Origin: Patescibacteria group bacterium
GTDB lineage: Bacteria; Patescibacteriota; Patescibacteriia; Patescibacteriales; JBAZCA01
Assembly: GCA_041671125.1 (NCBI GenBank)
Contig: JBAZCA010000003.1
Location: forward strand, 128,689-192,688
Direction of reading: 5' to 3'
DNA: 64,000 nucleotides
Under the pieces are notes generated by a model that made no database searches, was not told where the DNA came from, and worked only from the letters and a program-made list of their open reading frames with translations. Made by a program: the position numbers and the translations under genes. Of the stretch, positions 38,096 through 47,465 are shown in pieces; position 1 is the stretch's first letter, and each line of letters opens with the position of its first letter.

Positions 38096-38412
38096 ACAAT
38101 TTAAAATTGATTTCCATCGGGTTTTTAAATTCATTCGGCGTCCTCGTCTACATCGCTTTGGTGAGTTTTGCTTTAAGGAATGGGGAAAGGATTTTCGGGC
38201 AAATGGACAGCTTTCTCGCGCCAGTTGCCTTCCTCATGCTTTTTGTTTTTTCCGCCCTGACAACGGGACTATTGGTTCTCGGACGACCGATCTATTATTA
38301 TCTTAACGGCAAAAAAGCCGAAGCATTTAAGCTCATGCTTTTTACCTTGCTCTGGCTTTTTGCCATGCTGGTCGCGGTTTTCGGGAGCCTTATTATTATA
38401 AGGCTGGCATGA
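38092..38412 (+). CDS. Small integral membrane protein
   Basis: Three TM helices. Start and stop overlap both neighbouring genes. Confidence 0.5.
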   Translation: MNNLKLISIGFLNSFGVLVYIALVSFALRNGERIFGQMDSFLAPVAFLMLFVFSALTTGLLVLGRPIYYYLNGKKAEAFKLMLFTLLWLFAMLVAVFGSLIIIRLA

Positions 38413-39125
38413 AAGTAATTCTTCAAAAATATATCGCCCAATCAGGCCTCGCTTCAAGGCGGGCGGCTGAAATTTTGATCCGGCAGGGAAAAGTTTTCGT
38501 AAACGGCAAAAAAGCGCAAATCGGCATGGCGGTTGACATCGGTGACGCGCCTGAGGTTAAAGTTGGCGGGAAAAAATTAAGGTTGCCAGAAGAGAAAATA
38601 TATACTAAATTGAATAAGCCATCGGGCTATACCTCAACCGCTAGGAAGTTTAAGGGGGAAAAAAACGTTTTTGACCTCATAAAACTAAAAGAGCGGCTGT
38701 TCATAGTCGGACGGCTGGATAAAGACAGCCGGGGGCTAATCCTTTTAACTAATGACGGCGAGCTCGCCAACAAACTTACCCATCCGCGCTACGAAAAGGA
38801 AAAAGAATACATAGCAGAAATTTCAAATTCCAAATTCCAAATTCCAAAAAGAGAAAAAGAAGTAGTTTTTCAATTTACAGAAGGAATTGATATCGGGGAG
38901 GGGGATGGAATAGTAAAAGCTAAGAAAGTAAAATATCTGGGTGATAATAAATTCAACTTAGTTTTAACCGAAGGGAAGAAGCGGCAGATTCGGCGGATGT
39001 TTAAGAAGCTCGGGCTGGAAGTAAGAGATCTTGTCCGGGTAAGAATCGGCAAGCTGGAACTCGGGAATTTAAAAGAGGGGGAATGGAAAAAACTGACTGA
39101 GGACGAAATAAAAAAACTGAAGTAA
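38409..39125 (+). CDS. RsuA/RluB-family pseudouridine synthase
   Basis: N-terminal S4 domain (SRRAAEILI..G.V.VNG). Catalytic GRLDKDSRGLILLTNDG. Confidence 0.85.
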   Translation: MKVILQKYIAQSGLASRRAAEILIRQGKVFVNGKKAQIGMAVDIGDAPEVKVGGKKLRLPEEKIYTKLNKPSGYTSTARKFKGEKNVFDLIKLKERLFIVGRLDKDSRGLILLTNDGELANKLTHPRYEKEKEYIAEISNSKFQIPKREKEVVFQFTEGIDIGEGDGIVKAKKVKYLGDNKFNLVLTEGKKRQIRRMFKKLGLEVRDLVRVRIGKLELGNLKEGEWKKLTEDEIKKLK

Positions 39126-40731
39126 TGAGAAAATTAAATAACACGGAGAGGTGGCCGAGTGGCTGAAGGCACGACTCTCGAAAAGTCGCAGGGCGGCAAC
39201 GTCCTCCAGGGTTCAAATCCCTGCCTCTCCGCCAATTTTTACTTTTTGTGAAATCGTAAGAAACAGCCTCGGCGCAAAGCGCCTCGGCATGGTATTTTTC
39301 CGCAATTTTAAAGGCATTTTTGAAATCCAAAACCAAAGTGCGGTCGGCAATGTGGAAGTTCGAACCAATCTTTTTGAGAAAATCCCGAATCCTTTCGGGA
39401 TTTTCTTGTTGAGCGTATTTTTCGGCTTGGTTGGCGTCTTTTAGAAAGGCAATGGCAAGTTCGAACCGATTATTGCTCTTTCGCCCAAAAGCAGAGATTT
39501 TTTCTTCCAAATCTTTTTTAGCGAGAATGAGCTTGTACTTTTTGGCGGTATATTCTGTTTGCGACAAATTGCCGTCCAGTTGCAAGTCAAGTAAACGATC
39601 AAGTTTTGTTTCTATCTCTACAAGCTCATTTCTCGCTTTTTGGGCGAAAGAGCTTTCCGTTTGGGCAATTTTAATTTTTTCGTTTTCGAAAAAATTGATT
39701 GAAGCGTTTGCCCAAGCGGAAGACAAAGAAACTTTTTTGATTTCCTCTTTTATTTGAGCAGTGATGGCGTCCTCTCTGGCATACCTTTGCGAACAAGGAT
39801 TTTTCCGTTTGGTGCATCGCAAATAGTTGTGACCTTTTTGCGTTTCGGTGGTAATGAAACAACCGCACTCTCCGCAACGGAAAAATCCTCTAAAAATGTA
39901 CGGTTTGAGTTTTGGCGATTTCGGTTTGCTCTTGTTCGCCATCACTTCTTGAACGGAATCAAAAAGTTTCTTTGTGATAATCGGTTCATGCTTTCCGTCA
40001 TACAATTCACCGTTATATTCAATCATTCCATAATAGATTTTATTTTTGAGCATATACTGATAATTTGAGACGGAAAGCATTTTGCCTTTCTTGCCAACCA
40101 AGCCAATGGAATTGATAATCTTTCGGATTTGAGCGAGGGGGTATTCGCCAGTTGAGTACATTTCAAAAGCCCGCTTGATGTATTTTGCCTTTTCTTTGTC
40201 CACGGCGATACAGCGGGCGTTTTTGTCGTTCACATAGCCAAGTGGCGCCCAAGCAGGCCATATTCCATTGCGCAATTTCTGGCGAATACCCCTCTTTATA
40301 TTTTCCGAAAGATTATCCACATAGTATTTTGATTGCCCAAAAGCGATGGACAACATAAATTTTCCTTGCGGCGTCGGATCAAACCAAAAAGTAGGAAATT
40401 TTAGCGTGGTAATTTTTCCAGTATCTACGAGATAGATTATCCGTCCGCCGTCTATGGAATTACGAGCTAATCTATCGGGGTGCCACGCTAAAATTCCCTC
40501 AGCTTCATTTTTCTCTATGCTCGCCACCATATCGTTAAAAATCTCTCTGCCCGGCTCTTTGGCGGTTTTGCTTTCCACAAATTCACGGACGATATTCAGG
40601 TTTTCTTTTTTGGCATATTCTCGCAATTCAAACATTTGTGCCTCGATACTCAAAACCTGCCTTTCGGGTTCGTCCGTGGATTTGCGGGCATAGAGAAAAA
40701 TCTTTTTGGTTTGTAAATTTATGTTGTCCAT
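39001..40731 (-). CDS. Large serine recombinase (integrase). The conserved part ends near 39235; the ORF then reads antisense through tRNA-Ser.
   Basis: Catalytic-Ser motif IFLYARKSTDEPERQ, recombinase domain, zinc ribbon CGECG...LRCTKRKNPC, C-terminal coiled coil. The last 76 codons are the antisense of the tRNA and the rluB-like gene's 3' end. Confidence 0.85.
   Translation of the reverse strand: MDNINLQTKKIFLYARKSTDEPERQVLSIEAQMFELREYAKKENLNIVREFVESKTAKEPGREIFNDMVASIEKNEAEGILAWHPDRLARNSIDGGRIIYLVDTGKITTLKFPTFWFDPTPQGKFMLSIAFGQSKYYVDNLSENIKRGIRQKLRNGIWPAWAPLGYVNDKNARCIAVDKEKAKYIKRAFEMYSTGEYPLAQIRKIINSIGLVGKKGKMLSVSNYQYMLKNKIYYGMIEYNGELYDGKHEPIITKKLFDSVQEVMANKSKPKSPKLKPYIFRGFFRCGECGCFITTETQKGHNYLRCTKRKNPCSQRYAREDAITAQIKEEIKKVSLSSAWANASINFFENEKIKIAQTESSFAQKARNELVEIETKLDRLLDLQLDGNLSQTEYTAKKYKLILAKKDLEEKISAFGRKSNNRFELAIAFLKDANQAEKYAQQENPERIRDFLKKIGSNFHIADRTLVLDFKNAFKIAEKYHAEALCAEAVSYDFTKSKNWRRGRDLNPGGRCRPATFRESCLQPLGHLSVLFNFLITSVFLFRPQSVFSIPPLLNSRVPACRFLPGQDLLLPARAS
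39145..39234 (+). tRNA. tRNA-Ser (anticodon CGA), CCA encoded
   Basis: Hand-folded: acceptor GGAGAGG/CCTCTCC, anticodon loop cuCGAaa, long variable arm, T-arm CAGGGTTCAAATCCCTG. Confidence 0.9.
39216..39234. repeat. attL core (19-bp direct repeat, tRNA-Ser 3' end)
   Basis: AATCCCTGCCTCTCCGCCA, identical to 45158-45176. Confidence 0.85.
39266..39362. repeat. Inverted-repeat copy A (3' end of the recombinase gene)
   Basis: 95/97 identical to the reverse complement of 40846-40942. Confidence 0.9.
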
Positions 40732-40845
40732 ATTGTTTTTAAATTAGTTTTTGGGCAATCAAAGAAAAATACGCTCAACCTTTCGCCAAAGGCGAAAGAA
40801 AAAAGATTGGTTTGCAAAATTTCATTTTGCCAGAGCTTCGCTCTG

Positions 40846-40942
40846 CGAACTTCCGCATTGCCGACCGCACTTTGGTTTTGGATTTCAAAAATGCCTTCAA
40901 AATTGCGGAAAAATACCATGCCGAGGCGCTTTGCGCCGAGGC
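40846..40942. repeat. Inverted-repeat copy B (orphan duplicate of the recombinase 3' end, plus strand)
   Basis: Encodes ...ADRTLVLDFKNAFKIAEKYHAEALCAEA, as does the recombinase C-terminus. Confidence 0.9.
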
Positions 40943-40975
40943 TTCCAACCCTGATTTTTCGAAATGTGATTCTTG

Positions 40976-41281
40976 GCGGTGTTTTTTGAACGAAGTTCGA
41001 ACATTTTTTGAGCAAAACCCCCAATAAGGAAGCCAGCCCCGCCGTCGCTCGGAAACCTCGCCACCCCGCAAAAAAGTTTTCTTCACATTTTATATTTTGC
41101 GCGCGCCGATTTTTTTCTTCTAAAAGGAAAAGAAAACTTTTGTGCGGGGTTCTGCTCTTAACGAGCAGGACGGCGGGGCTGTCCGCTTTTTGTATTCGCT
41201 CGGGCGTGGCGGAATTCCCCCCAAACCCCCCTTCCGCCACGCCCTCGCTTCCGACGGCAATTTTTTTGGCGGAATTTTCTT
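40976..41281. repeat. 306-bp perfect inverted repeat, left copy
   Basis: Exact reverse complement of 44776-45081, checked base by base at both borders and via identical mirrored ORF translations. Confidence 0.9.
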
Positions 41282-41392
41282 TCTTTTCCTTGTCCCACCC
41301 TCCCAACGCGGAAAAGACAAAGGAACTCCCTTTTTTCTTTACTATTTCCAAATATTTTGGTAATATTATATTGTGGTTGCGAAGTTTGAACA

Positions 41393-41405
41393 TATAATCA
41401 TTATA
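41393..41405. promoter_or_regulatory. Palindrome TATAATcATTATA over the putative -10 upstream of the controller gene (candidate C-box/operator)
   Basis: Perfect 13-bp palindrome flanked by a 7-bp inverted repeat ATTGTGG/CCACAAT, 27 nt before the XRE gene start. Confidence 0.35.
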
Positions 41406-41431
41406 CCACAATTTAATATTACTAATAAAAT

Positions 41432-41626
41432 ATGGTAGAGTCAAGCAAAATCAAACGAATAAGGGAAAAGCTAGGTTTGTCGCAAGAGAAACTGGCTCGT
41501 CTTGCCGATGTTTCAAATAATACGATAATAAACATAGAGGCAGGCAAACAAGATAATCCGACCATTGATACACTTAAAAAAATCGCAAAAGCGTTAAATG
41601 TGCCGATTGAGGATTTAATAAAATAA
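41432..41626 (+). CDS. XRE-family HTH protein (likely R-M controller C-protein)
   Basis: LGLSQEKLARLADVSNNTIINIEAG HTH. 64 aa. Directly precedes the REase gene. Confidence 0.8.
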   Translation: MVESSKIKRIREKLGLSQEKLARLADVSNNTIINIEAGKQDNPTIDTLKKIAKALNVPIEDLIK

Positions 41627-41630
41627 AACT

Positions 41631-42479
41631 ATGGAAACAAATTTACTTATCGCTATCACAAATTTAGTTAAAAACCCAATTACAAATTTGGTTTCTCATT
41701 ATCGTGCCGCCAATCGGGCTAACCATATGGGCGACGCTTTAGAATTTTATATTAAGGATTTATTTTGCAATTCCCTAAATGAAAACAACCTTGAAAAGAA
41801 AAATGAAATTTACAGTAAGTATTTTTCCTACATTGGAAACCAAAATAATCCGCCAGATATTATTATCAAGCAAGGCGACGCAATAGAGGTAAAAAAGATT
41901 GAAAGTTTGCGCTCGGGAATTGCTCTTAATAGTTCATATCCAAAAGATAAGTTGTATTCTGATAGCCCGATGATAACAACGGCTTGCAGAAATTGTGAAG
42001 ATTGGCGAGAAAAAGATTTGGTGTATGTTGTTGGTGTTTCAAAAGATGACAAACTAAAAGCACTTTGGCTGGTTTATGGTAATTGCTATTCAGCAAGTAA
42101 AGAAGTTTACGAGAGAGTAAGAGATAAAATTTCAAAAGGTGTTAACGAATTGCAAGATGTTGAATTTTCAGAAACCAATGAGCTTGGTAGGGTCAACAGA
42201 GTTGATCCACTAGGAATAACTTATTTGCGTATTCGTGGAATGTGGGGCATTGAAAATCCCATCAAGGTTTTTGATTATGTCGTCCCGACAGAGCAAAATC
42301 CCGAATTTTTTGTTAATGCAATTTTGCTGAAAGAAAAATATTTGTCCTTTCCAGAAAAAGACAGAAAAAATCTTGAGAGTTTGGTTGGTTCTAACTTTTC
42401 AATAAAAGATATAAAAATAAAATCGCCAAACAACCCAGCAAAATTGCTGGAGGCAAAATTATTGAGTTTTAGAAAATAA
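41631..42479 (+). CDS. Type II restriction endonuclease (PD-(D/E)xK)
   Basis: NNPPDIIIKQGDAIEVKK gives a PD...EVK catalytic motif. 1-nt gap to the MTase gene. Confidence 0.7.
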   Translation: METNLLIAITNLVKNPITNLVSHYRAANRANHMGDALEFYIKDLFCNSLNENNLEKKNEIYSKYFSYIGNQNNPPDIIIKQGDAIEVKKIESLRSGIALNSSYPKDKLYSDSPMITTACRNCEDWREKDLVYVVGVSKDDKLKALWLVYGNCYSASKEVYERVRDKISKGVNELQDVEFSETNELGRVNRVDPLGITYLRIRGMWGIENPIKVFDYVVPTEQNPEFFVNAILLKEKYLSFPEKDRKNLESLVGSNFSIKDIKIKSPNNPAKLLEAKLLSFRK

Positions 42480-42480
42480 T

Positions 42481-43458
42481 ATGAAATTAGCTTCTTTATT
42501 TACAGGTGCGGGCGGACTAGATTTAGGCTTTGAAAGAGCTGGTTTTCATATTGTTTGGGCAAATGAATATGACCCAACAATTTGGGAAACATTTGAGCAT
42601 AATTTTCCCAAAACAAAACTAGACAAAAGAAGTATTGTAGATGTTCCAGCGTCTGAAATTCCAGATGTTGACGGAATAATCGGCGGGCCACCTTGTCAGA
42701 GTTGGAGTGAGGCAGGTGCTGGTCGTGGAATAAATGATAAGCGAGGTCAATTATTTTATGATTATATCCGTTTGCTAAAAGAAAAACAGCCAAAATTTTT
42801 TCTTGCAGAAAATGTATCGGGTATTTTACATCCAAAACATAAAGAGGCATTTTCAAATATAATCAAGGAATTTGAAAATGCGGGATATGAAATTTCATGT
42901 AAATTGCTAAATGCGAATGATTACGATGTTCCAGAGGATAGACTTCGAGTTATTATCGTTGGCTACCACAAAAGATTAAAAAAGAAATTTGAGTTTCCAG
43001 AACCACAAAAATATAAACCTGTATTGAAAGACGCTATTTATGATTTGCGTTTAGCAAAACCAGCTTTAGATAAAAATAAGACAAACGGCGATGAGCTAAA
43101 GATTCCAAACCATGAATATATGAATGGCGGTTTTTCTTCAATCTATATGTCAAGAAATCGAGTGCGTTCGTGGGATGAACCCTCTTTCACAATTCAAGCT
43201 GGAGGTCGCCACGCACCTATTCACCCTCAAGCACCAAAAATGAAATTCATAAGCCAAAACGAAAGAATTTTTGTTCCCGGAAAAGAAAATTTGTATCGCC
43301 GTTTGTCCGTAAGAGAATGTGCAAGAATTCAGACATTTCCTGACGATTTTATTTTCAAATATCGTGATATTGCTGACGGATATAAAATGATTGGTAATGC
43401 CGTTGCTGTAAATTTTGCTTTTCACTTGGCAAAAAAAATAATGGACGATCTAAAATAA
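42481..43458 (+). CDS. DNA (cytosine-5)-methyltransferase, HaeIII-like
   Basis: Motif I LFTGAGGLDLG, motif IV GGPPCQSWS, ENV, QTFPDDF, GNAV. From memory, the target-recognition region (ALDKNKTNG...PNHEY...MSRNRVR.W.EP.FT.QA.GR...HPQAP) closely resembles M.HaeIII. Confidence 0.9.
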   Translation: MKLASLFTGAGGLDLGFERAGFHIVWANEYDPTIWETFEHNFPKTKLDKRSIVDVPASEIPDVDGIIGGPPCQSWSEAGAGRGINDKRGQLFYDYIRLLKEKQPKFFLAENVSGILHPKHKEAFSNIIKEFENAGYEISCKLLNANDYDVPEDRLRVIIVGYHKRLKKKFEFPEPQKYKPVLKDAIYDLRLAKPALDKNKTNGDELKIPNHEYMNGGFSSIYMSRNRVRSWDEPSFTIQAGGRHAPIHPQAPKMKFISQNERIFVPGKENLYRRLSVRECARIQTFPDDFIFKYRDIADGYKMIGNAVAVNFAFHLAKKIMDDLK

Positions 43459-43461
43459 TTT

Positions 43462-43992
43462 ATGGAGAATTTTTTTAATCAAATCACAAATTTCTATAAT
43501 CACCCATTATTTATTATAGTTGGCGGAATAACTGTAACCATAGCGTTTATTGCATTTGTTTACAGATTGGCTTGTTGGACTTTTGGAATTACTCCGATTG
43601 TTTTTCGCTTGGGAATTGCCCTTTGGCAAAGAAAGGTGGCTATTTTTGGAAGTGTTGAAATATTTGAAAGCTTGAAAAATTCTCTTATTGATTCAAATAT
43701 TTTCAAAAGTAAAAACATCATACATATAAGTTTAGATAATATCGACAAGGCAAAGAATGAAACTATTTTTTTGGTCGATTGGGAAACATTTGGAGACAAA
43801 ATAGAGCAGATTTTTTCTGCAAGAAAAAATCATCAAACGGCAATAGTGATTTATGCTAAACCAGCAAGTATTCCTCAAGAAAAAATGAGCGATATCGCGA
43901 ATCGTGCAAATACCGTTGTCGTAAATTTTCGAGGTCGTCTTTTGAATGATATTTTGACCTCACTAATCACGACAAGCTATGACCGAAATTAA
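43462..43992 (+). CDS. Membrane-anchored protein with cytoplasmic Rossmann-like (alternating beta/alpha) domain; candidate effector/sensor
   Basis: TM helix PLFIIVGGITVTIAFIAFVY plus a second amphipathic hydrophobic segment, then strand-like KVAIFGS / IIHISL / IFLVDW / AIVIYA / VVVNF. Overlaps the next gene. Confidence 0.6.
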   Translation: MENFFNQITNFYNHPLFIIVGGITVTIAFIAFVYRLACWTFGITPIVFRLGIALWQRKVAIFGSVEIFESLKNSLIDSNIFKSKNIIHISLDNIDKAKNETIFLVDWETFGDKIEQIFSARKNHQTAIVIYAKPASIPQEKMSDIANRANTVVVNFRGRLLNDILTSLITTSYDRN

Positions 43993-44764
43993 TATGTATT
44001 TGAATCAGATATTACAAAAATATAATGGGAGAGATATTTCAGGCTATTCCAATGCACTTTCTCAACTTCAAACGTCCTTGAAAACATGGGCATCGTCTTG
44101 TTATGCAAATCTTTTGTATTCTGGCTCTCGAGCAAAAGGCACGGCGATATCTCTTGCGTCTGATGTAGATTATTTAGTTTCTTTGACAAGTAGCTGTAAC
44201 GAAAATAGCGGTGGTCTAAAAAGTATTTACGATTCTTTGTATACAACATTGAAAAGTAAGTATCCATCAGCTAGTAAACAAAATGTTTCCGTAAGAATAA
44301 ACTTGAATGGATTAGAAGTAGATATAACCCCAGCAAGAAAACAAACGGGAAATACGAACGACCATTGGTTATATGTCTCGAAACTTGACACAAGAAAGCA
44401 AACAAATATTCAGAAGCATATCAATGATATATCTCAATCGGGCAGAATAAACGAGATAAAATTGTTGAAGATTTGGAGAGAGTTAAACCACCTTGATTTT
44501 TCATCAATATATTTGGAATACCTGCTTGTCAATAATATTTTGCTGAATAAATCAAAAGATGAAAATAGCCTTGGGGATAATGTTTGGCACGCTCTTAATG
44601 AATTAGCAAAAACTCAAGGCAATCCATTGTTTGCAAGAATTGTCGACCCAGCCAACTCTGCAAATATTCTTTCCGATCTTTTGACAAGTACCGAAAAGAA
44701 TAAGATAATAAGCCAAGCACAAACAGCAATTCGTCAAACAGATTGGAATCAAATTGTTTGGTAG
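43979..44764 (+). CDS. Minimal Pol-beta-fold nucleotidyltransferase, cGAS/DncV (SMODS/CD-NTase)-like
   Basis: GSRAKGTAISLASDVDYLVSL (GS...DxD), third acidic residue in GLEVDITPA, then TNIQKHI...IKLLKIWR helical-domain pattern. An alternative ATG at 43994 is 1 nt after the upstream stop. Confidence 0.65.
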   Translation: MTEINMYLNQILQKYNGRDISGYSNALSQLQTSLKTWASSCYANLLYSGSRAKGTAISLASDVDYLVSLTSSCNENSGGLKSIYDSLYTTLKSKYPSASKQNVSVRINLNGLEVDITPARKQTGNTNDHWLYVSKLDTRKQTNIQKHINDISQSGRINEIKLLKIWRELNHLDFSSIYLEYLLVNNILLNKSKDENSLGDNVWHALNELAKTQGNPLFARIVDPANSANILSDLLTSTEKNKIISQAQTAIRQTDWNQIVW

Positions 44765-44775
44765 TTTGGATTTAT

Positions 44776-45081
44776 AAGAAAATTCCGCCAAAAAAATTGC
44801 CGTCGGAAGCGAGGGCGTGGCGGAAGGGGGGTTTGGGGGGAATTCCGCCACGCCCGAGCGAATACAAAAAGCGGACAGCCCCGCCGTCCTGCTCGTTAAG
44901 AGCAGAACCCCGCACAAAAGTTTTCTTTTCCTTTTAGAAGAAAAAAATCGGCGCGCGCAAAATATAAAATGTGAAGAAAACTTTTTTGCGGGGTGGCGAG
45001 GTTTCCGAGCGACGGCGGGGCTGGCTTCCTTATTGGGGGTTTTGCTCAAAAAATGTTCGAACTTCGTTCAAAAAACACCGC
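44776..45081. repeat. 306-bp perfect inverted repeat, right copy
   Basis: Exact reverse complement of 40976-41281. An imperfect extension of about 9 bp lies outward. Confidence 0.9.
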
Positions 45082-45157
45082 AGAGAATCAGCGGTAAATT
45101 TCAAAAGAAAGTTTGGGTTCGGGAGGCATACGCCTCCCGCCCGGCGCAGGCCGGGCG

Positions 45158-45176
45158 AATCCCTGCCTCTCCGCCA
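45158..45176. repeat. attR core (19-bp direct repeat)
   Basis: AATCCCTGCCTCTCCGCCA, not embedded in a foldable tRNA. Confidence 0.85.
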
Positions 45177-45191
45177 GATAAAATTTAATTT

Positions 45192-45881
45192 ATGTATTTG
45201 GAAAAATTCAGCGAATTTTTAAAGACAGTTGATTTGCAGGGTTTTAGAAAAAAGTATAGCCGGGTAAAAATTGTTGAAATGGATTTAAGTAAAGACATTC
45301 AGGCTATTGAATTATTGTATCGGGTGTATTGGGATGAAAAAAAGTTTTTATCCTTTGATGATTTTTACGACCGCTATTTTAGCGAGAAAAGACAAGCGGC
45401 GGAGAATTTTCGTATCAGATCAACTATGTGTAAAGATTGTTTCCGCCGCGGCTTGAAAGCAAGGATTTATAGAACCTGGGCAGGACTAATAACACAGATT
45501 CACGCCGGGTACGTGGCCGAATTTGTTTTTGGCGAAGGAACGGTTTCTATGTCTGCCGAACTTGACCATCAGGGAGCGGATATAAGAGTAAAATATAGGG
45601 GTCACTTTTTAAATTATCAGGTTAAAAAAACCAGCTATAGCGGCGTAAAAAGCGGACGGCCGTTGCCACGGAAGGCTAAACTTGAAGGTGAGTCAATTGA
45701 TATTAAATATGAGGTCCCTAGTTGTCTTCAAAACCCAAAAACAAAAAAAGGCGAGCTCAGAGAACCTTATTTAAGGTTCTGTAAAGACGAGAGAATAAAG
45801 TCTTTTGATAACGGCTTCGTGGTTTTCACTACGAAAATTTTTAAAGATAAAAAAAGAGAAATTGATTCAAGGTCAAAATAG
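45192..45881 (+). CDS. Putative type II restriction endonuclease (TaqI-like family, tentative)
   Basis: LKARIYRTWAGLITQIHAGY...ELDHQGADIRV...NYQVKK gives a D...(Q)xK nuclease-like core. From memory it resembles R.TaqI. Convergent with the MTase gene and overlaps it by 9 nt. Confidence 0.5.
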   Translation: MYLEKFSEFLKTVDLQGFRKKYSRVKIVEMDLSKDIQAIELLYRVYWDEKKFLSFDDFYDRYFSEKRQAAENFRIRSTMCKDCFRRGLKARIYRTWAGLITQIHAGYVAEFVFGEGTVSMSAELDHQGADIRVKYRGHFLNYQVKKTSYSGVKSGRPLPRKAKLEGESIDIKYEVPSCLQNPKTKKGELREPYLRFCKDERIKSFDNGFVVFTTKIFKDKKREIDSRSK

Positions 45882-47399
45882 CTTAAGAGCCGTTTTTACC
45901 GACGCAATCGCCTTTTCGGCGATTTTTTTGTACTCAGGGTTAATTTCAAAGCCGATATAATTTTGATTTAGTTCTTTGGCGGCCGCGCATTCAGCTCCGC
46001 TTCCCGCGAAGGGAACAAGTATAACGCCATTTCCTTTCGGCATGGCCGATCTGATAAGCCGGCGGCAAATCTCTAAAGGTTTCTGAGTCGGATGCTTTAT
46101 TATATCGTGGCCGATATGTTTTTTTAATTCTCTTGGCGCGAAAACTCCGCCCCCGCAAGTTTTACAGATAAACCACCTCTCGTTCATGCCCGCTCCCCCG
46201 GCCAAGGCCGGAATCTTTATAACATCTCTCGGTAAGGCGCCTCCTTCGTGAGCATTATATACGGTTTCTTTTCCATTCTTACTGTAACGACCAACCGTTC
46301 CTTTGCGTATTTTTCCGGCCGCTCCATTTAAAAAACCTTCGGTGTAAGGCTCCCGCACTTCGTCCCGGTTATAGATCGGATTGTTTTTCCAGGCGCAGAT
46401 TATGGCTTCATGGCTTCTTTGCCAAAAATTTAGAGAAGCAACGTTTTTGTTTGTATAGTGCCAAATAAGCCATCTTTTATTTATTGGTATCTCAACCGAA
46501 AGATGAGCAAGAATTTCACTAAAACCATAAATAAACATTGTGCCAGTTGGTTTTAAGACCCTAATAGATTCATCTATCCAACTTTTTGACCAACGAATAT
46601 ATTCATTCATTTCTCGTTTATCAATGTTGTTGCCAAAATCTTTACCGATATTATATGGCGGATCAATTATAATAACATCGCAACATTCATCTGGTAATTT
46701 CCTTAATTCTTCAACTGCATCATTTAAAATAATTTGATTGAGAGGTAATCTATTATTACGTTTAATATTTTTTGACGTAATCAGCTCTTTTGCAAAATTA
46801 TTTTCATCGTTTTTTATAACATCAATTACAATACCTTGTATTGTTAACGGGGTTTGTTTGGAAATAATTATGGGATCCATTGTTCTGTTGGCTGGCTGAA
46901 GTCTAATATGCCCCTTTTCTTTGTAAAACTTTTTTAATGTAGTTTGATAGTTATCAATTAAAGCAACAATTTTTTGCCCATTTTCGGCGGTATCCTGCTG
47001 TTTGACTATCACTACATCGCCGTCATTAATATTCTCTTCAATCATACTATTGCCAACAACTCTCAATGCATAGAAATTGCCAGAGCTTGGTAATTTACTC
47101 TGTGGAACGGCAATAACATTCCTTTCTTTAATAGCTTCAATGGGTTGTCCGGCCGCGATATTCCCCATGAGCGGAATATTTATCATTTTTTCGCTCTCAA
47201 AAACAGAAATCGCTCTTGGTTGATTATCTTCTTTTCTTAAAAAGCCTTTTTCCTGGAGTTTTTTTATATGAAAGTGAGCGGTAGAAACAGAAGCTATTTT
47301 TAGATGCTTCTTAATTTCTTCAAGGGAGGGGGCGTATTTATGCTTAAAGCAATATTGTTTTACAAAATCCAATACATTTTTTTGTTTTTTAGTAAGCAT
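45873..47399 (-). CDS. LexA-like repressor (wHTH + S24 peptidase) fused to a beta-class N4/N6 DNA methyltransferase
   Basis: Residues 1-200: LexA wHTH, cleavage-site IAAGQP, Ser motif VGNSM, Lys in TTLKKF. Residues about 225-508: IIIDPPYN (motif IV) precedes VPFAGSGAE (motif I), with PTQKP and a CxxC insert. Confidence 0.8.
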   Translation of the reverse strand: MLTKKQKNVLDFVKQYCFKHKYAPSLEEIKKHLKIASVSTAHFHIKKLQEKGFLRKEDNQPRAISVFESEKMINIPLMGNIAAGQPIEAIKERNVIAVPQSKLPSSGNFYALRVVGNSMIEENINDGDVVIVKQQDTAENGQKIVALIDNYQTTLKKFYKEKGHIRLQPANRTMDPIIISKQTPLTIQGIVIDVIKNDENNFAKELITSKNIKRNNRLPLNQIILNDAVEELRKLPDECCDVIIIDPPYNIGKDFGNNIDKREMNEYIRWSKSWIDESIRVLKPTGTMFIYGFSEILAHLSVEIPINKRWLIWHYTNKNVASLNFWQRSHEAIICAWKNNPIYNRDEVREPYTEGFLNGAAGKIRKGTVGRYSKNGKETVYNAHEGGALPRDVIKIPALAGGAGMNERWFICKTCGGGVFAPRELKKHIGHDIIKHPTQKPLEICRRLIRSAMPKGNGVILVPFAGSGAECAAAKELNQNYIGFEINPEYKKIAEKAIASVKTALKLF

Positions 47400-47403
47400 A
47401 TTA

Positions 47404-47465
47404 TTGACAGACGATTTTTATTAGGTATATAATACTATTATAGAAAATAAATAGAAAACTTACAA
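47404..47465. promoter_or_regulatory. Divergent overlapping promoters sharing a 15-bp palindrome TATAATAcTATTATA (candidate LexA-MTase operator)
   Basis: Plus strand: TTGACA (47404), 18 nt, TATAAT (47428). Minus strand: TTGTAA (47465-47460), 17 nt, TATAAT (47442-47437). Palindrome at 47428-47442. Confidence 0.5.

What the first reader, a model, noticed from the sequence alone, without database searches (positions are those of the whole stretch)
39001..39362. The att core lies inside the recombinase ORF, so integration swaps its C-terminal tail
In the integrated state, the recombinase frame has no stop after ...FTKSKNW. It reads antisense through tRNA-Ser and into the neighbouring pseudouridine synthase gene for 76 extra codons, ending at 39001. 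I joined the element ends on paper, continuing the minus strand from 39235 into 45176. The same frame then reads WRRGRDSPGLRRAGGVCLPNPNFLLKFTADSLRCFLNEVRTFFEQNPQ-stop. That tail ends exactly as the orphan plus-strand copy at 40812-41027 does (…DSWRCFLNEVRTFFEQNPQ-stop). The additional 93 nt are a multiple of three. This independently supports circularisation at these boundaries. It also suggests that the two states encode recombinases with different tails, as in SSV-type elements where attP lies within int.
Basis: seen in the sequence. Interest (0 to 1): 0.65.

Follow-up and report, generated by a model that had tools for sequence, protein, structure and literature searches.

The report
Integration site inside the recombinase gene
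A small mobile element in a tRNA-Ser gene carries its attachment site inside the last codons of its own serine recombinase gene, so insertion replaces the enzyme's last 16 amino acids with read-through of the tRNA, and a spare inverted copy of the gene's end sits just upstream; dozens of related elements are built the same way.

Summary
The large serine recombinase (LSR) ORF (40731→39001, minus strand) has no stop at the tRNA-Ser boundary and runs 76 codons further. Joining 39235 to 45176 gives the stated tail (547 aa, not 548).

The core idea is strongly supported across the family. In 56 of 60 related loci the recombinase abuts an antisense tRNA. W500 (TGG) is the tRNA's CCA. Relatives not split by a tRNA end ...W-RCFL(D/N)EVRTFFEQNP.

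The 547-aa circle is probably wrong. In 16 relatives, and in a second host carrying the same cargo, host DNA starts directly beside the tail-coding half-site, with no 93-nt insert. The intact protein is therefore most likely 516 aa, with crossover near 39229-39231 and 45078-80. However, a related genome with an empty site lacks exactly 39235-45176, so the 93 nt remain unexplained.

The "orphan" is not debris. An inverted, intact second attP with the recombinase 3' end lies upstream of the gene in 52 of 57 relatives, usually 97-100% identical to the gene's own end. A few loci show it recombined with a tRNA.

I class this as a new variant of a known kind, closest to the Mx8 and SSV1 integrases, which are tyrosine recombinases.

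The parts
39145..39234 (+). tRNA-Ser(cga), the integration target. Its 3' end CCGCCA (39229-39234) is the core shared with the element. CCA (39232-39234) read antisense is codon W500 of the recombinase.
   Evidence: ARAGORN, Rfam tRNA 54.9 bits, sequence.
39001..40731 (-). Large serine recombinase ORF as it stands in the integrated state (576 aa). Residues 1-499 (39235-40731) are element-encoded. Residues 500-576 are antisense tRNA, spacer and pseudouridine synthase gene.
   Evidence: Pfam Resolvase + Recombinase + Zn_ribbon_recom.
39235..39362 (-). P arm of the split attachment site (39235-39264, ...VSYDFTKSKN) plus the left arm of the 98-nt inverted repeat (39265-39362).
40764..41027 (+). 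'Orphan': an inverted copy of the recombinase 3' end carrying an intact second attP. It comprises two hairpins, the 98-nt repeat (40846-40943), a P arm (40944-40973), the core TGGCGG (40974-40979) and a P' half-site that encodes RCFLNEVRTFFEQNPQ* (stop at 41025-41027).
   Evidence: The same arrangement occurs in 52 of 57 relatives.
40967..41281 (+). Left arm of the 315-nt inverted repeat (attP core, P', tail, and about 250 nt of G+C-rich hairpin sequence).
   Evidence: No Rfam family.
41432..44764 (+). Cargo: an HTH_3 regulator (41432-41626, conserved in 14 of 17 relatives), an NgoPII-type restriction enzyme, a C5 cytosine methyltransferase, a 176-aa unknown protein and a SMODS-like nucleotidyltransferase.
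   Evidence: The same 3.5-kb cargo at 97.6-97.7% identity occurs in other contexts.
44776..45090 (-). Right arm of the 315-nt inverted repeat. Read on the minus strand it holds the detached tail of the recombinase: core* CTGCGG (45078-45083), the P' half-site and the codons RCFLNEVRTFFEQNPQ* (45080->45030). The family-consensus crossover point is 45078-45080.
45084..45176 (.). The 93-nt piece of unexplained origin. It comprises TGATTCT (matching the orphan's P arm), 67 nt with two G+C-rich hairpins, and a 19-nt copy of the tRNA 3' end (45158-45176).
   Evidence: No significant similarity to P arms. Found only in contigs of the same host. Absent from the empty site L088.

Best explanation
Window 39235-~45080 is a small (~5.85 kb) integrative element carrying restriction-modification and defence-type cargo. 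A large serine recombinase inserted it at the 3' end of tRNA-Ser(cga).

In this family the phage-type attachment site (attP) sits inside the recombinase's own reading frame:
- The P arm encodes roughly residues 489-499.
- The core TGG-CGG encodes W500-R501 and equals the tRNA's CCA, discriminator and last acceptor bases.
- The P' half-site encodes the final 15 residues (CFLNEVRTFFEQNPQ).

Strand exchange inside CGG joins the P arm to the antisense tRNA. The gene loses its last helix and stop codon, and gains a host-dependent junk extension (76 codons here). The detached tail codons end up 5.8 kb away at the far junction. The un-split protein is most likely 516 aa (...KSKNW-RCFLNEVRTFFEQNPQ).

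Each element also keeps a second, intact, inverted attP with a copy of the gene's last ~45-85 codons, immediately upstream of the recombinase. This copy stays nearly identical to the gene's end.

Inference: this copy lets the element exist in two states. In one the recombinase is split and points at the tRNA. In the other it is intact and points away. The switch could occur by integrating through either site or by inverting the recombinase segment. In this way the copy can regenerate a full-length recombinase.

Shown: anatomy, family-wide junctions, tail conservation, both states, tandem integrations. Inferred: crossover dinucleotide, the effect of the tail on activity, the purpose of the second attP.
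For: Domains and catalytic serine: Resolvase, Recombinase and Zn-ribbon domains; invariant R16-K17-S18.

Target: 56 of 60 relatives with a complete 3' end abut an antisense tRNA, 52 of them tRNA-Ser of all four anticodons seen. The tblastn match stops at residue 499-501.

Two tail classes among the 120 closest homologues...W-RRGRDSNPR... (antisense tRNA, variable length) and ...W-RCFLDEVRTFFEQNP (512-522 aa).

Far junctions in 16 relatives read host DNA | (T)(G)GCGG | TGTTTTTTGA. Variants TGCGG, GGCGG and TCGG place the exchange inside CGG.

The motif TTCGAAC lies 5 bp further from the core in P' (positions 23-29) than in the tRNA half-site (18-24) in every locus. This is the attP/attB offset described for LI integrase (PMC3783163).

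Tail codons vary mostly at third positions: 0.245 versus 0.095 and 0.052. The AlphaFold model puts W500 inside a terminal helix 494-513.

Second attP: 52 of 57 loci have an inverted copy, mostly 97-100% identical within a locus even in 58-64%-identity relatives.

Intact-gene state next to a tRNA: L001. L040 has the orphan arm-tRNA junction but its recombinase end runs off the contig, and in L026 both arms are joined to a tRNA copy. In L093 the far junction lies on the opposite side of the same cargo.

Empty site: L088.
Against: The empty site L088 lacks the whole of 39235-45176 including the 93 nt, and the insertion is bounded by a perfect 19-bp direct repeat.

The far core reads CTGCGG, and 7 nt to its left (TGATTCT) match the orphan's P arm. 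A plain host-to-P' junction does not predict this.

No circular form, reads or expression data were available. Exact look-ups of the 516-, 547- and 576-aa forms found nothing.

No recombination directionality factor was identified.

Contigs showing the intact-gene state could in part be paths an assembler chose through inverted repeats. However, L001 and L026 have distinct arm sequences.

The function of the second attP is inference only.
Confidence: 0.78

Rival explanations
1. The mobile unit is the full 5942 bp bounded by the 19-bp repeat. The circle encodes a 547-aa recombinase with a 31-aa insert, and recombination occurs within the tRNA-like repeat.
For: There is a perfect 19-bp direct repeat. 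The empty site L088 lacks exactly this segment. The joined frame stays open and ends in the family tail.
Against: No homologue has such an insert. The 93 nt occur only in this host's contigs. 16 relatives, plus L093 with the same cargo, have host DNA directly next to the P' half-site.

The joint would be P arm + core + tRNA-like half, which is attL-like, with the TTCGAAC motif broken (TTCGCCC). Serine integrases do not recombine pairings other than attP x attB without a directionality factor (PMC3783163).

L088 is a different species (about 77% backbone identity), so the 93 nt may be a lineage-specific scar that pre-dates the insertion.
Confidence: 0.2
2. The orphan copy and the inverted repeats are accidents: debris of a second decayed element, or an assembly chimera. 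They have no role.
For: Tandem integrations and decayed remnants do occur at these tRNA sites (L008 and L022; L033; L090-type arrays). Assemblies do break at these repeats.
Against: The same inverted copy occurs at the same place (45-420 nt upstream of the start) in 52 of 57 independently assembled loci from many phyla. This includes relatives at 52-64% protein identity. Within-locus identity is near-perfect while lineages differ. The site is intact (P arm, TGGCGG, P') and has recombined precisely with a tRNA in L001, L026 and L040.
Confidence: 0.07
3. The tail is conserved only because its DNA is the recombinase binding site. The peptide itself is dispensable, so the 'tail swap' has no consequence for the enzyme.
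For: GTTCGAAC within the tail codons is invariant even at third codon positions, and the same motif occurs in the tRNA half-site. Integrated copies keep otherwise intact ORFs.
Against: Overall variability is three to five times higher at third codon positions, the signature of selection on the protein. The tail is predicted as part of a helix. The stop codon position is kept within a few residues across relatives down to about 60% identity.
Confidence: 0.2

Closest known systems
Myxococcus phage Mx8 integrase (intP / intX)
   Same: attP lies within the integrase coding sequence. Integration into a tRNA locus creates a recombinant gene with a new 3' end, and the altered protein is reported to remain active with changed specificity (PMC6070905).
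   Different: Mx8 Int is a tyrosine recombinase, whereas this is a large serine recombinase with a 2-bp-type exchange. From memory, the Mx8 exchange replaces a much larger C-terminal segment. No conserved inverted second attP is described for Mx8.
SSV1-type (Fuselloviridae) integrases of archaea
   Different: They are tyrosine recombinases. The gene is split into two substantial fragments and inactivated. Here only the last 16 residues are exchanged and all catalytic and DNA-binding domains stay together.
Canonical large serine integrases (Listeria A118/LI, Bxb1, phiC31)
   Same: They share the domain set. They use short asymmetric attP and attB sites with little identity beyond a central dinucleotide. 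The zinc-ribbon motif is 5 bp further out in attP half-sites than in attB half-sites (PMC3783163).
   Different: In those systems attP is intergenic, next to int. Here it is inside the ORF and the target is the 3' end of a tRNA gene. There are two inverted attP copies per element, and no directionality factor was identified.
Integration-dependent immunity of mycobacteriophages such as BPs (my own knowledge; not checked in the library)
   Same: attP sits inside a coding region, so the integrated and free states encode proteins with different C-termini. The phage uses this as a state sensor.
   Different: There the split gene is the repressor, the enzyme is a tyrosine integrase, and the swapped part is a degradation tag.
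Tycheposon-like tRNA island build-up
   Same: Successive integrations at one tRNA push older elements inward and leave partial tRNAs and degenerate remnants (bioRxiv 10.1101/2020.12.28.424599). L008 and L022 show the same process here.
   Different: Most tycheposons use tyrosine recombinases and duplicate part of the tRNA. Here a newcomer integrates into the older element's attL and gives the older recombinase a chimeric tail.

Membership tests
Large serine recombinase (serine integrase) integrative element | N-terminal resolvase catalytic domain with the nucleophilic serine, plus a recombinase domain and a zinc-ribbon domain with an inserted coiled coil | tested here: met
   Pfam PF00239, PF07508 and PF13408. 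R16, K17 and S18 are invariant in 21 homologues. Long helices 338-385 and 391-441 appear in the model.
Large serine recombinase (serine integrase) integrative element | Recombination between short non-identical attP and attB sites, with identity limited to a few central bases | tested here: met
   At far junctions in 16 loci, host sequence diverges immediately left of (G)CGG. At near junctions it diverges immediately right of TGGCGG. This is inferred from junctions; no reaction was observed.
Large serine recombinase (serine integrase) integrative element | Zinc-ribbon recognition motif displaced about 5 bp outward in attP half-sites relative to attB half-sites | tested here: met
   TTCGAAC lies at positions 23-29 after the start of TGGCGG in P', and at 18-24 in the tRNA half-site, in all loci listed. 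Rule taken from PMC3783163. I assume this motif is the zinc-ribbon motif.
Large serine recombinase (serine integrase) integrative element | A separate recombination directionality factor is needed for excision | not tested
   No candidate was identified. The only conserved companion gene is a 64-70-aa HTH_3 protein, whose role is unknown.
attP-inside-integrase systems (Mx8 IntP/IntX, SSV1 Int) | The crossover site lies within the recombinase's own ORF, so integrated and free forms encode different C-termini | tested here: met
attP-inside-integrase systems (Mx8 IntP/IntX, SSV1 Int) | Tyrosine recombinase chemistry | tested here: not met
   The enzyme has a serine recombinase domain set. The element therefore works like these systems but is not a member.
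attP-inside-integrase systems (Mx8 IntP/IntX, SSV1 Int) | The prophage-form protein has altered or lost activity | not testable with these tools
   Only indirect hints are available: protein-level conservation of the tail and a predicted terminal helix cut at W500.
Invertible-segment switches with inverted recombination sites (2-micron FLP type, DNA invertases) | Two inverted copies of the recombinase's site flank a segment, and both orientations are found | tested here: inconclusive
   Inverted attP copies flank the recombinase segment in 52 of 57 loci. Both arrangements exist across different loci (L001, L040, L093 versus 56 others). They were never shown within one population, and attP x attP or attL x attP is not a known serine-integrase reaction.

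The most novel reading that the evidence does not exclude
The conserved inverted second attP, together with the copy of the gene's end, may be a built-in two-state switch. Under this reading, integration through the in-gene site disarms the recombinase by cutting off its terminal helix. Inversion of the recombinase segment, or integration through the second site, restores a full-length enzyme and so sets whether the element is locked in or able to move. The intact attP in the integrated element could also act as a landing pad that captures other tRNA-bearing DNA, as L026 hints. This would be a directionality or commitment control for serine integrases that needs no separate directionality factor.
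Probability: 0.25. Interest if true: 0.8.

Novelty: new variant of a known kind. Interest (0 to 1): 0.6.

Why it matters
Serine integrases are prized genome-engineering tools because their sites are short and the reaction is one-way. How natural elements control that direction is still an active question.

Here a very widespread family places attP inside the enzyme's own last codons, so the act of integration edits the enzyme. Recombinases at least 89% identical occur in genome bins labelled as many different Patescibacteria lineages, and 58-65%-identity relatives occur in Elusimicrobiota. Every element also keeps a second intact attP.

If the tail matters for activity, this is a self-contained state sensor for a serine integrase. 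It could be tested directly with about 50-bp sites and two protein forms.

The family also gives a concrete, well-defined vehicle for restriction-modification and defence genes in the candidate phyla radiation. My literature searches found no description of this family or architecture.

For annotation, it explains why these recombinases have wildly variable called lengths (499-580 aa) and why assemblies break just upstream of them.

Tried and rejected
1. I first read the 93 nt as a tRNA T-arm interrupted by a 36-nt insertion. I then read it as a 74-nt relic of an older recombinase P arm left by tandem integration. A shuffle test rejected the second idea: 61 of 300 shuffles reach the observed score. 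Only TGATTCT next to the core matches. The first idea rested on a coincidental CGAACCC.

2. A search of JGI metagenome contigs for the 93-nt piece found nothing.

3. Exact-sequence look-ups of the predicted 516-, 547- and 576-aa proteins found none in the collection, which is uninformative.

4. An Rfam search of 38300-46000 found only the tRNA. The 315-nt repeat matches no RNA family.

5. I looked for a tRNA-end repeat at the far side of the TaqI module and found none.

6. Flanking-gene look-ups found only the same occupied locus, broken at the repeats. The empty site came from a degenerate DNA pattern instead.

7. The orphan as a small protein-coding gene is rejected. There is no conserved start codon. 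Its 5' part is two hairpins whose stem sequences differ between the three loci compared while still able to pair, so the peptide there is not conserved.

8. Palindromic misassembly as the explanation for L026 is rejected. The two arms and the outer flanks differ.

9. Literature searches for a serine recombinase with attP in its own ORF, or for this family in Patescibacteria, found nothing relevant.
Full report
**Observation**

The minus-strand ORF 40731->39001 encodes a 576-aa protein with Resolvase, Recombinase and zinc-ribbon domains, so it is a large serine recombinase. It has no stop where it meets tRNA-Ser(cga) (39145-39234). It continues for 76 codons through the antisense tRNA into the pseudouridine synthase gene.

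A 19-nt direct repeat of the tRNA 3' end lies at 39216-39234 and 45158-45176. The product is 547 aa, not 548. The plus-strand copy at 40812-41027 ends in the same ...RCFLNEVRTFFEQNPQ*.

Two long inverted repeats organise the region:
- 98 nt at 98% identity (39265-39362 / 40846-40943).
- 315 nt at 99% identity (40967-41281 / 44776-45090).

In the orphan these two blocks are 23 nt apart.

**The family**

The recombinase has thousands of homologues. The C-termini of the 120 closest fall into two classes:
- About 21 end at 512-530 aa with ...KSENW-RCFL(D/N/I)(E/D)VRTFF(E/D)(Q/E)NP...
- Most of the rest continue after the same W with RRGRDSNPR... and stop at variable lengths. That sequence is the reverse complement of a tRNA acceptor and T arm.

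None of the 120 carries both motifs.

A scan of one genome per species returned 80 loci. Recombinases at least 89% identical sit in bins labelled as many different Patescibacteria lineages. Relatives at 58-65% identity sit mostly in Elusimicrobiota bins. Key counts:
- In 56 of the 60 loci with a complete 3' end, an antisense tRNA abuts the ORF. 52 of these are tRNA-Ser with anticodon cga, gct, gga or tga. The rest are Gln, Glu or Asp in distant members.
- Residue 499 is the last element-encoded codon. W500 (TGG) is the tRNA's CCA.

The claim that the att core lies in the ORF and that integration swaps the tail is therefore a family rule, not a peculiarity of this window.

**Where the exchange happens**

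Upstream of each recombinase, on the other strand, lies an intact site: P arm - TGGCGG - TGTTTTTTGA(A/T)(C/T)GA(A/T)GTTCGAAC. A second copy of the right half lies 1.6-6.5 kb away at the far end of the element.

In 16 loci the far-end copy is preceded by unrelated host sequence, often a terminator hairpin. That host sequence reaches TGGCGG, TGCGG, GGCGG or TCGG. The host-derived bases therefore reach to within three bases of TGTTTT, which places the exchange inside CGG. These bases correspond to acceptor bases 71-72 and the discriminator. I favour GG because CG is palindromic; this is inference.

The motif TTCGAAC begins 5 bp further from the core in the element half-site than in the tRNA half-site, in every locus. 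This is the attP-versus-attB offset of the zinc-ribbon motif described for the Listeria integrase (PMC3783163). The tail-coding DNA thus behaves as a genuine attP half-site.

The tail is also under protein-level selection. Among 37 distinct copies, variability is 0.245 at third codon positions, against 0.095 and 0.052 at first and second positions. An AlphaFold model of a native homologue (mean pLDDT 72.5) puts W500 inside a terminal helix spanning 494-513. Integration therefore cuts that helix and replaces it with Gly/Pro-rich junk of arbitrary length.

**The boundary question**

By the family rule, the far crossover in the window is at 45078-45080 (CCG of CCGCAG, read CTGCGG on the minus strand). 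The element is then about 5.85 kb and the intact protein is 516 aa.

Locus L093 supports this. It carries the same 3.5-kb cargo and repeat at 97.7% identity in another host, with a plain host-hairpin | TGGCGG | TGTTTTTT junction and no 93-nt piece.

A degenerate-pattern scan also found an empty site, and it points the other way. In L088, the pseudouridine synthase gene and tRNA-Ser(cga) are followed directly by ...CCTCTCCGCCA|GATAAAATTTAATTT and the TaqI-type restriction gene.

L088 is another species. Its backbone is 73-88% identical to the window. The 2.3-kb TaqI/LexA-methylase module to the right is 97.4% identical, so that module has itself been exchanged recently.

L088 therefore cannot say whether the 93 nt arrived with the element or were already there. 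The alternatives I considered are a scar of an earlier event, or a piece of tRNA end brought in with the TaqI module.

My attempts to explain the 93 nt failed. Apart from TGATTCT next to the core, they have no significant similarity to recombinase P arms. They occur nowhere else in the data I could search.

Serine integrases are not known to use such a site.

**The 'orphan' is a conserved part**

In 52 of 57 loci with enough upstream sequence, an inverted copy of the recombinase's own last 100-130 nt lies 45-420 nt upstream of its start codon. The five exceptions have only 217-502 nt of upstream sequence available.

Within a locus the two copies are usually 97-100% identical and share locus-specific variants, while lineages differ. 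This holds in the 58-64%-identity relatives and in a 52%-identity subfamily. That pattern indicates concerted evolution of a functional duplicate.

The copy is a complete attP. It is unlikely to be a gene. It has no conserved start codon. Its 5' part is two hairpins whose stem sequences differ between the three loci compared while still able to pair.

The second site has recombined with tRNAs:
- In L001 a tRNA-Ser is followed by an antisense 40-residue recombinase C-terminal fragment (E about 1e-17). Then comes an intact recombinase with its native tail, reading away from the tRNA.
- L040 shows the same type of junction.
- In L026 both arms are joined to identical inverted tRNA-Ser(gga) copies with different outer flanks.
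- In L093 the far junction is on the opposite side of the cargo from the window.

The family therefore exists in at least two arrangements. These can be produced either by integrating through either attP or by inverting the recombinase segment across the repeats. I could not tell these two routes apart, nor show both arrangements within one population.

**Other family features**

A 64-70-aa HTH_3 protein sits next to the second attP in 14 of 17 elements. The rest of the cargo varies and is mostly restriction-modification or defence-like genes.

New elements can integrate into the attL of an older one. In L008 the older recombinase's P arm is fused through TGGCGG to the tail-coding half-site of a 52%-identity newcomer, giving a chimeric tail WRCAFENIRTDFQNL. 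L022 shows the same.

The repeats explain two assembly artefacts. Many contigs end 100-500 nt upstream of the recombinase. Many intact-tail proteins sit on contigs of about 2 kb.

**Comparison with known systems**

The principle is known for tyrosine recombinases. Mx8 has attP within int, and integration creates a new 3' end with altered properties (PMC6070905). SSV1-type integrases are split by integration (my own knowledge).

I found no description of a serine integrase with attP in its own ORF, of the paired inverted attP, or of this family in Patescibacteria. The large survey of serine recombinase sites does not mention it in its main text. Absence from an incomplete library is weak evidence.

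I therefore class the finding as a new variant of a known kind. Interest is moderate to high, mainly because of the conserved second attP and the direct testability of a self-editing integrase.

Noticed in passing
window 45192-47457: A TaqI-like restriction enzyme (45192-45881) is paired with a methyltransferase fused to a complete LexA-like N-terminus (LexA DNA-binding domain + S24 peptidase + N6/N4 MTase; 45873-47399, minus strand). The 2.3-kb module is 97.4% identical to one at the same tRNA-Ser in another species (L088), whose backbone is only 73-88% identical. It is therefore a recently exchanged cassette. A self-cleaving LexA domain on a methylase suggests damage-responsive control of a restriction-modification system.
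   Followed up: partly
window 40980-41281 and 44776-45077: The roughly 250 nt of the inverted repeat beyond the tail codons are G+C-rich with nested hairpins (for example 41063-41092 / 41121-41150). They are 94-95% conserved in several relatives (L001, L009, L017, L030, L035, L050) but absent in others. No Rfam family matches, and the ORFs called there look spurious.
   Followed up: partly
window 43462-44764: The cargo includes a 176-aa protein with predicted N-terminal membrane helices, overlapping a 261-aa SMODS-like nucleotidyltransferase. This may be a two-gene defence module riding with the NgoPII-type restriction-modification system. The whole 3.5-kb cargo recurs at 97.6-97.7% identity in unrelated contexts (L089, L090, L092, L093, L096).
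   Followed up: partly
L026 9669-11587: A 1.7-kb recombinase segment is flanked by two identical inverted tRNA-Ser(gga) genes, each precisely joined to a different recombinase arm. The outer flanks differ and no tail half-site lies within 10 kb. The second attP may have captured other tRNA-bearing DNA, or a chromosomal rearrangement may have occurred.
   Followed up: partly
L090 8600-8700 (also L089, L092, L096): Two tail-coding half-sites are joined head-to-head (...CAAAAAACA CCG TTTTTGAACGAAGTTCGAAC...), with 3-4 nt missing on one side. They sit in recombinase-less arrays of cargo cassettes downstream of a tRNA-Ser(tga). This could be a product of wrongly aligned recombination or of decay.
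   Followed up: no
L001 7650-7720: The first ~25 nt of tRNA-Ser(gct), together with its upstream AATAT, are duplicated about 120 nt upstream of the real gene and followed by G+C-rich hairpins. This is a 5'-side scar that the serine recombinase mechanism described here does not explain.
   Followed up: no
loci L008-L060: Recombinases 89-98% identical to the window's occur in bins labelled Saccharibacteria, Gracilibacteria, Paceibacterota, Moraniibacteriota, Magasanikbacteria, Andersenbacteria, Peribacteria and Berkelbacteria. They also occur in bins labelled Gammaproteobacteria, Dehalococcoidia, Caldisericales, Verrucomicrobiota and Pacearchaeota. Either the host range is extraordinarily broad and the spread recent, or these short repeat-bounded contigs are often mis-binned.
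   Followed up: no
window 40288 and 44776 versus assembly ERZ27249449 (L003, L005): An independent assembly of the same organism breaks inside the recombinase (about 40288) and exactly at the edge of the 315-nt repeat (44776). The window's continuous path through the element has therefore not been independently confirmed by a second assembly.
   Followed up: partly
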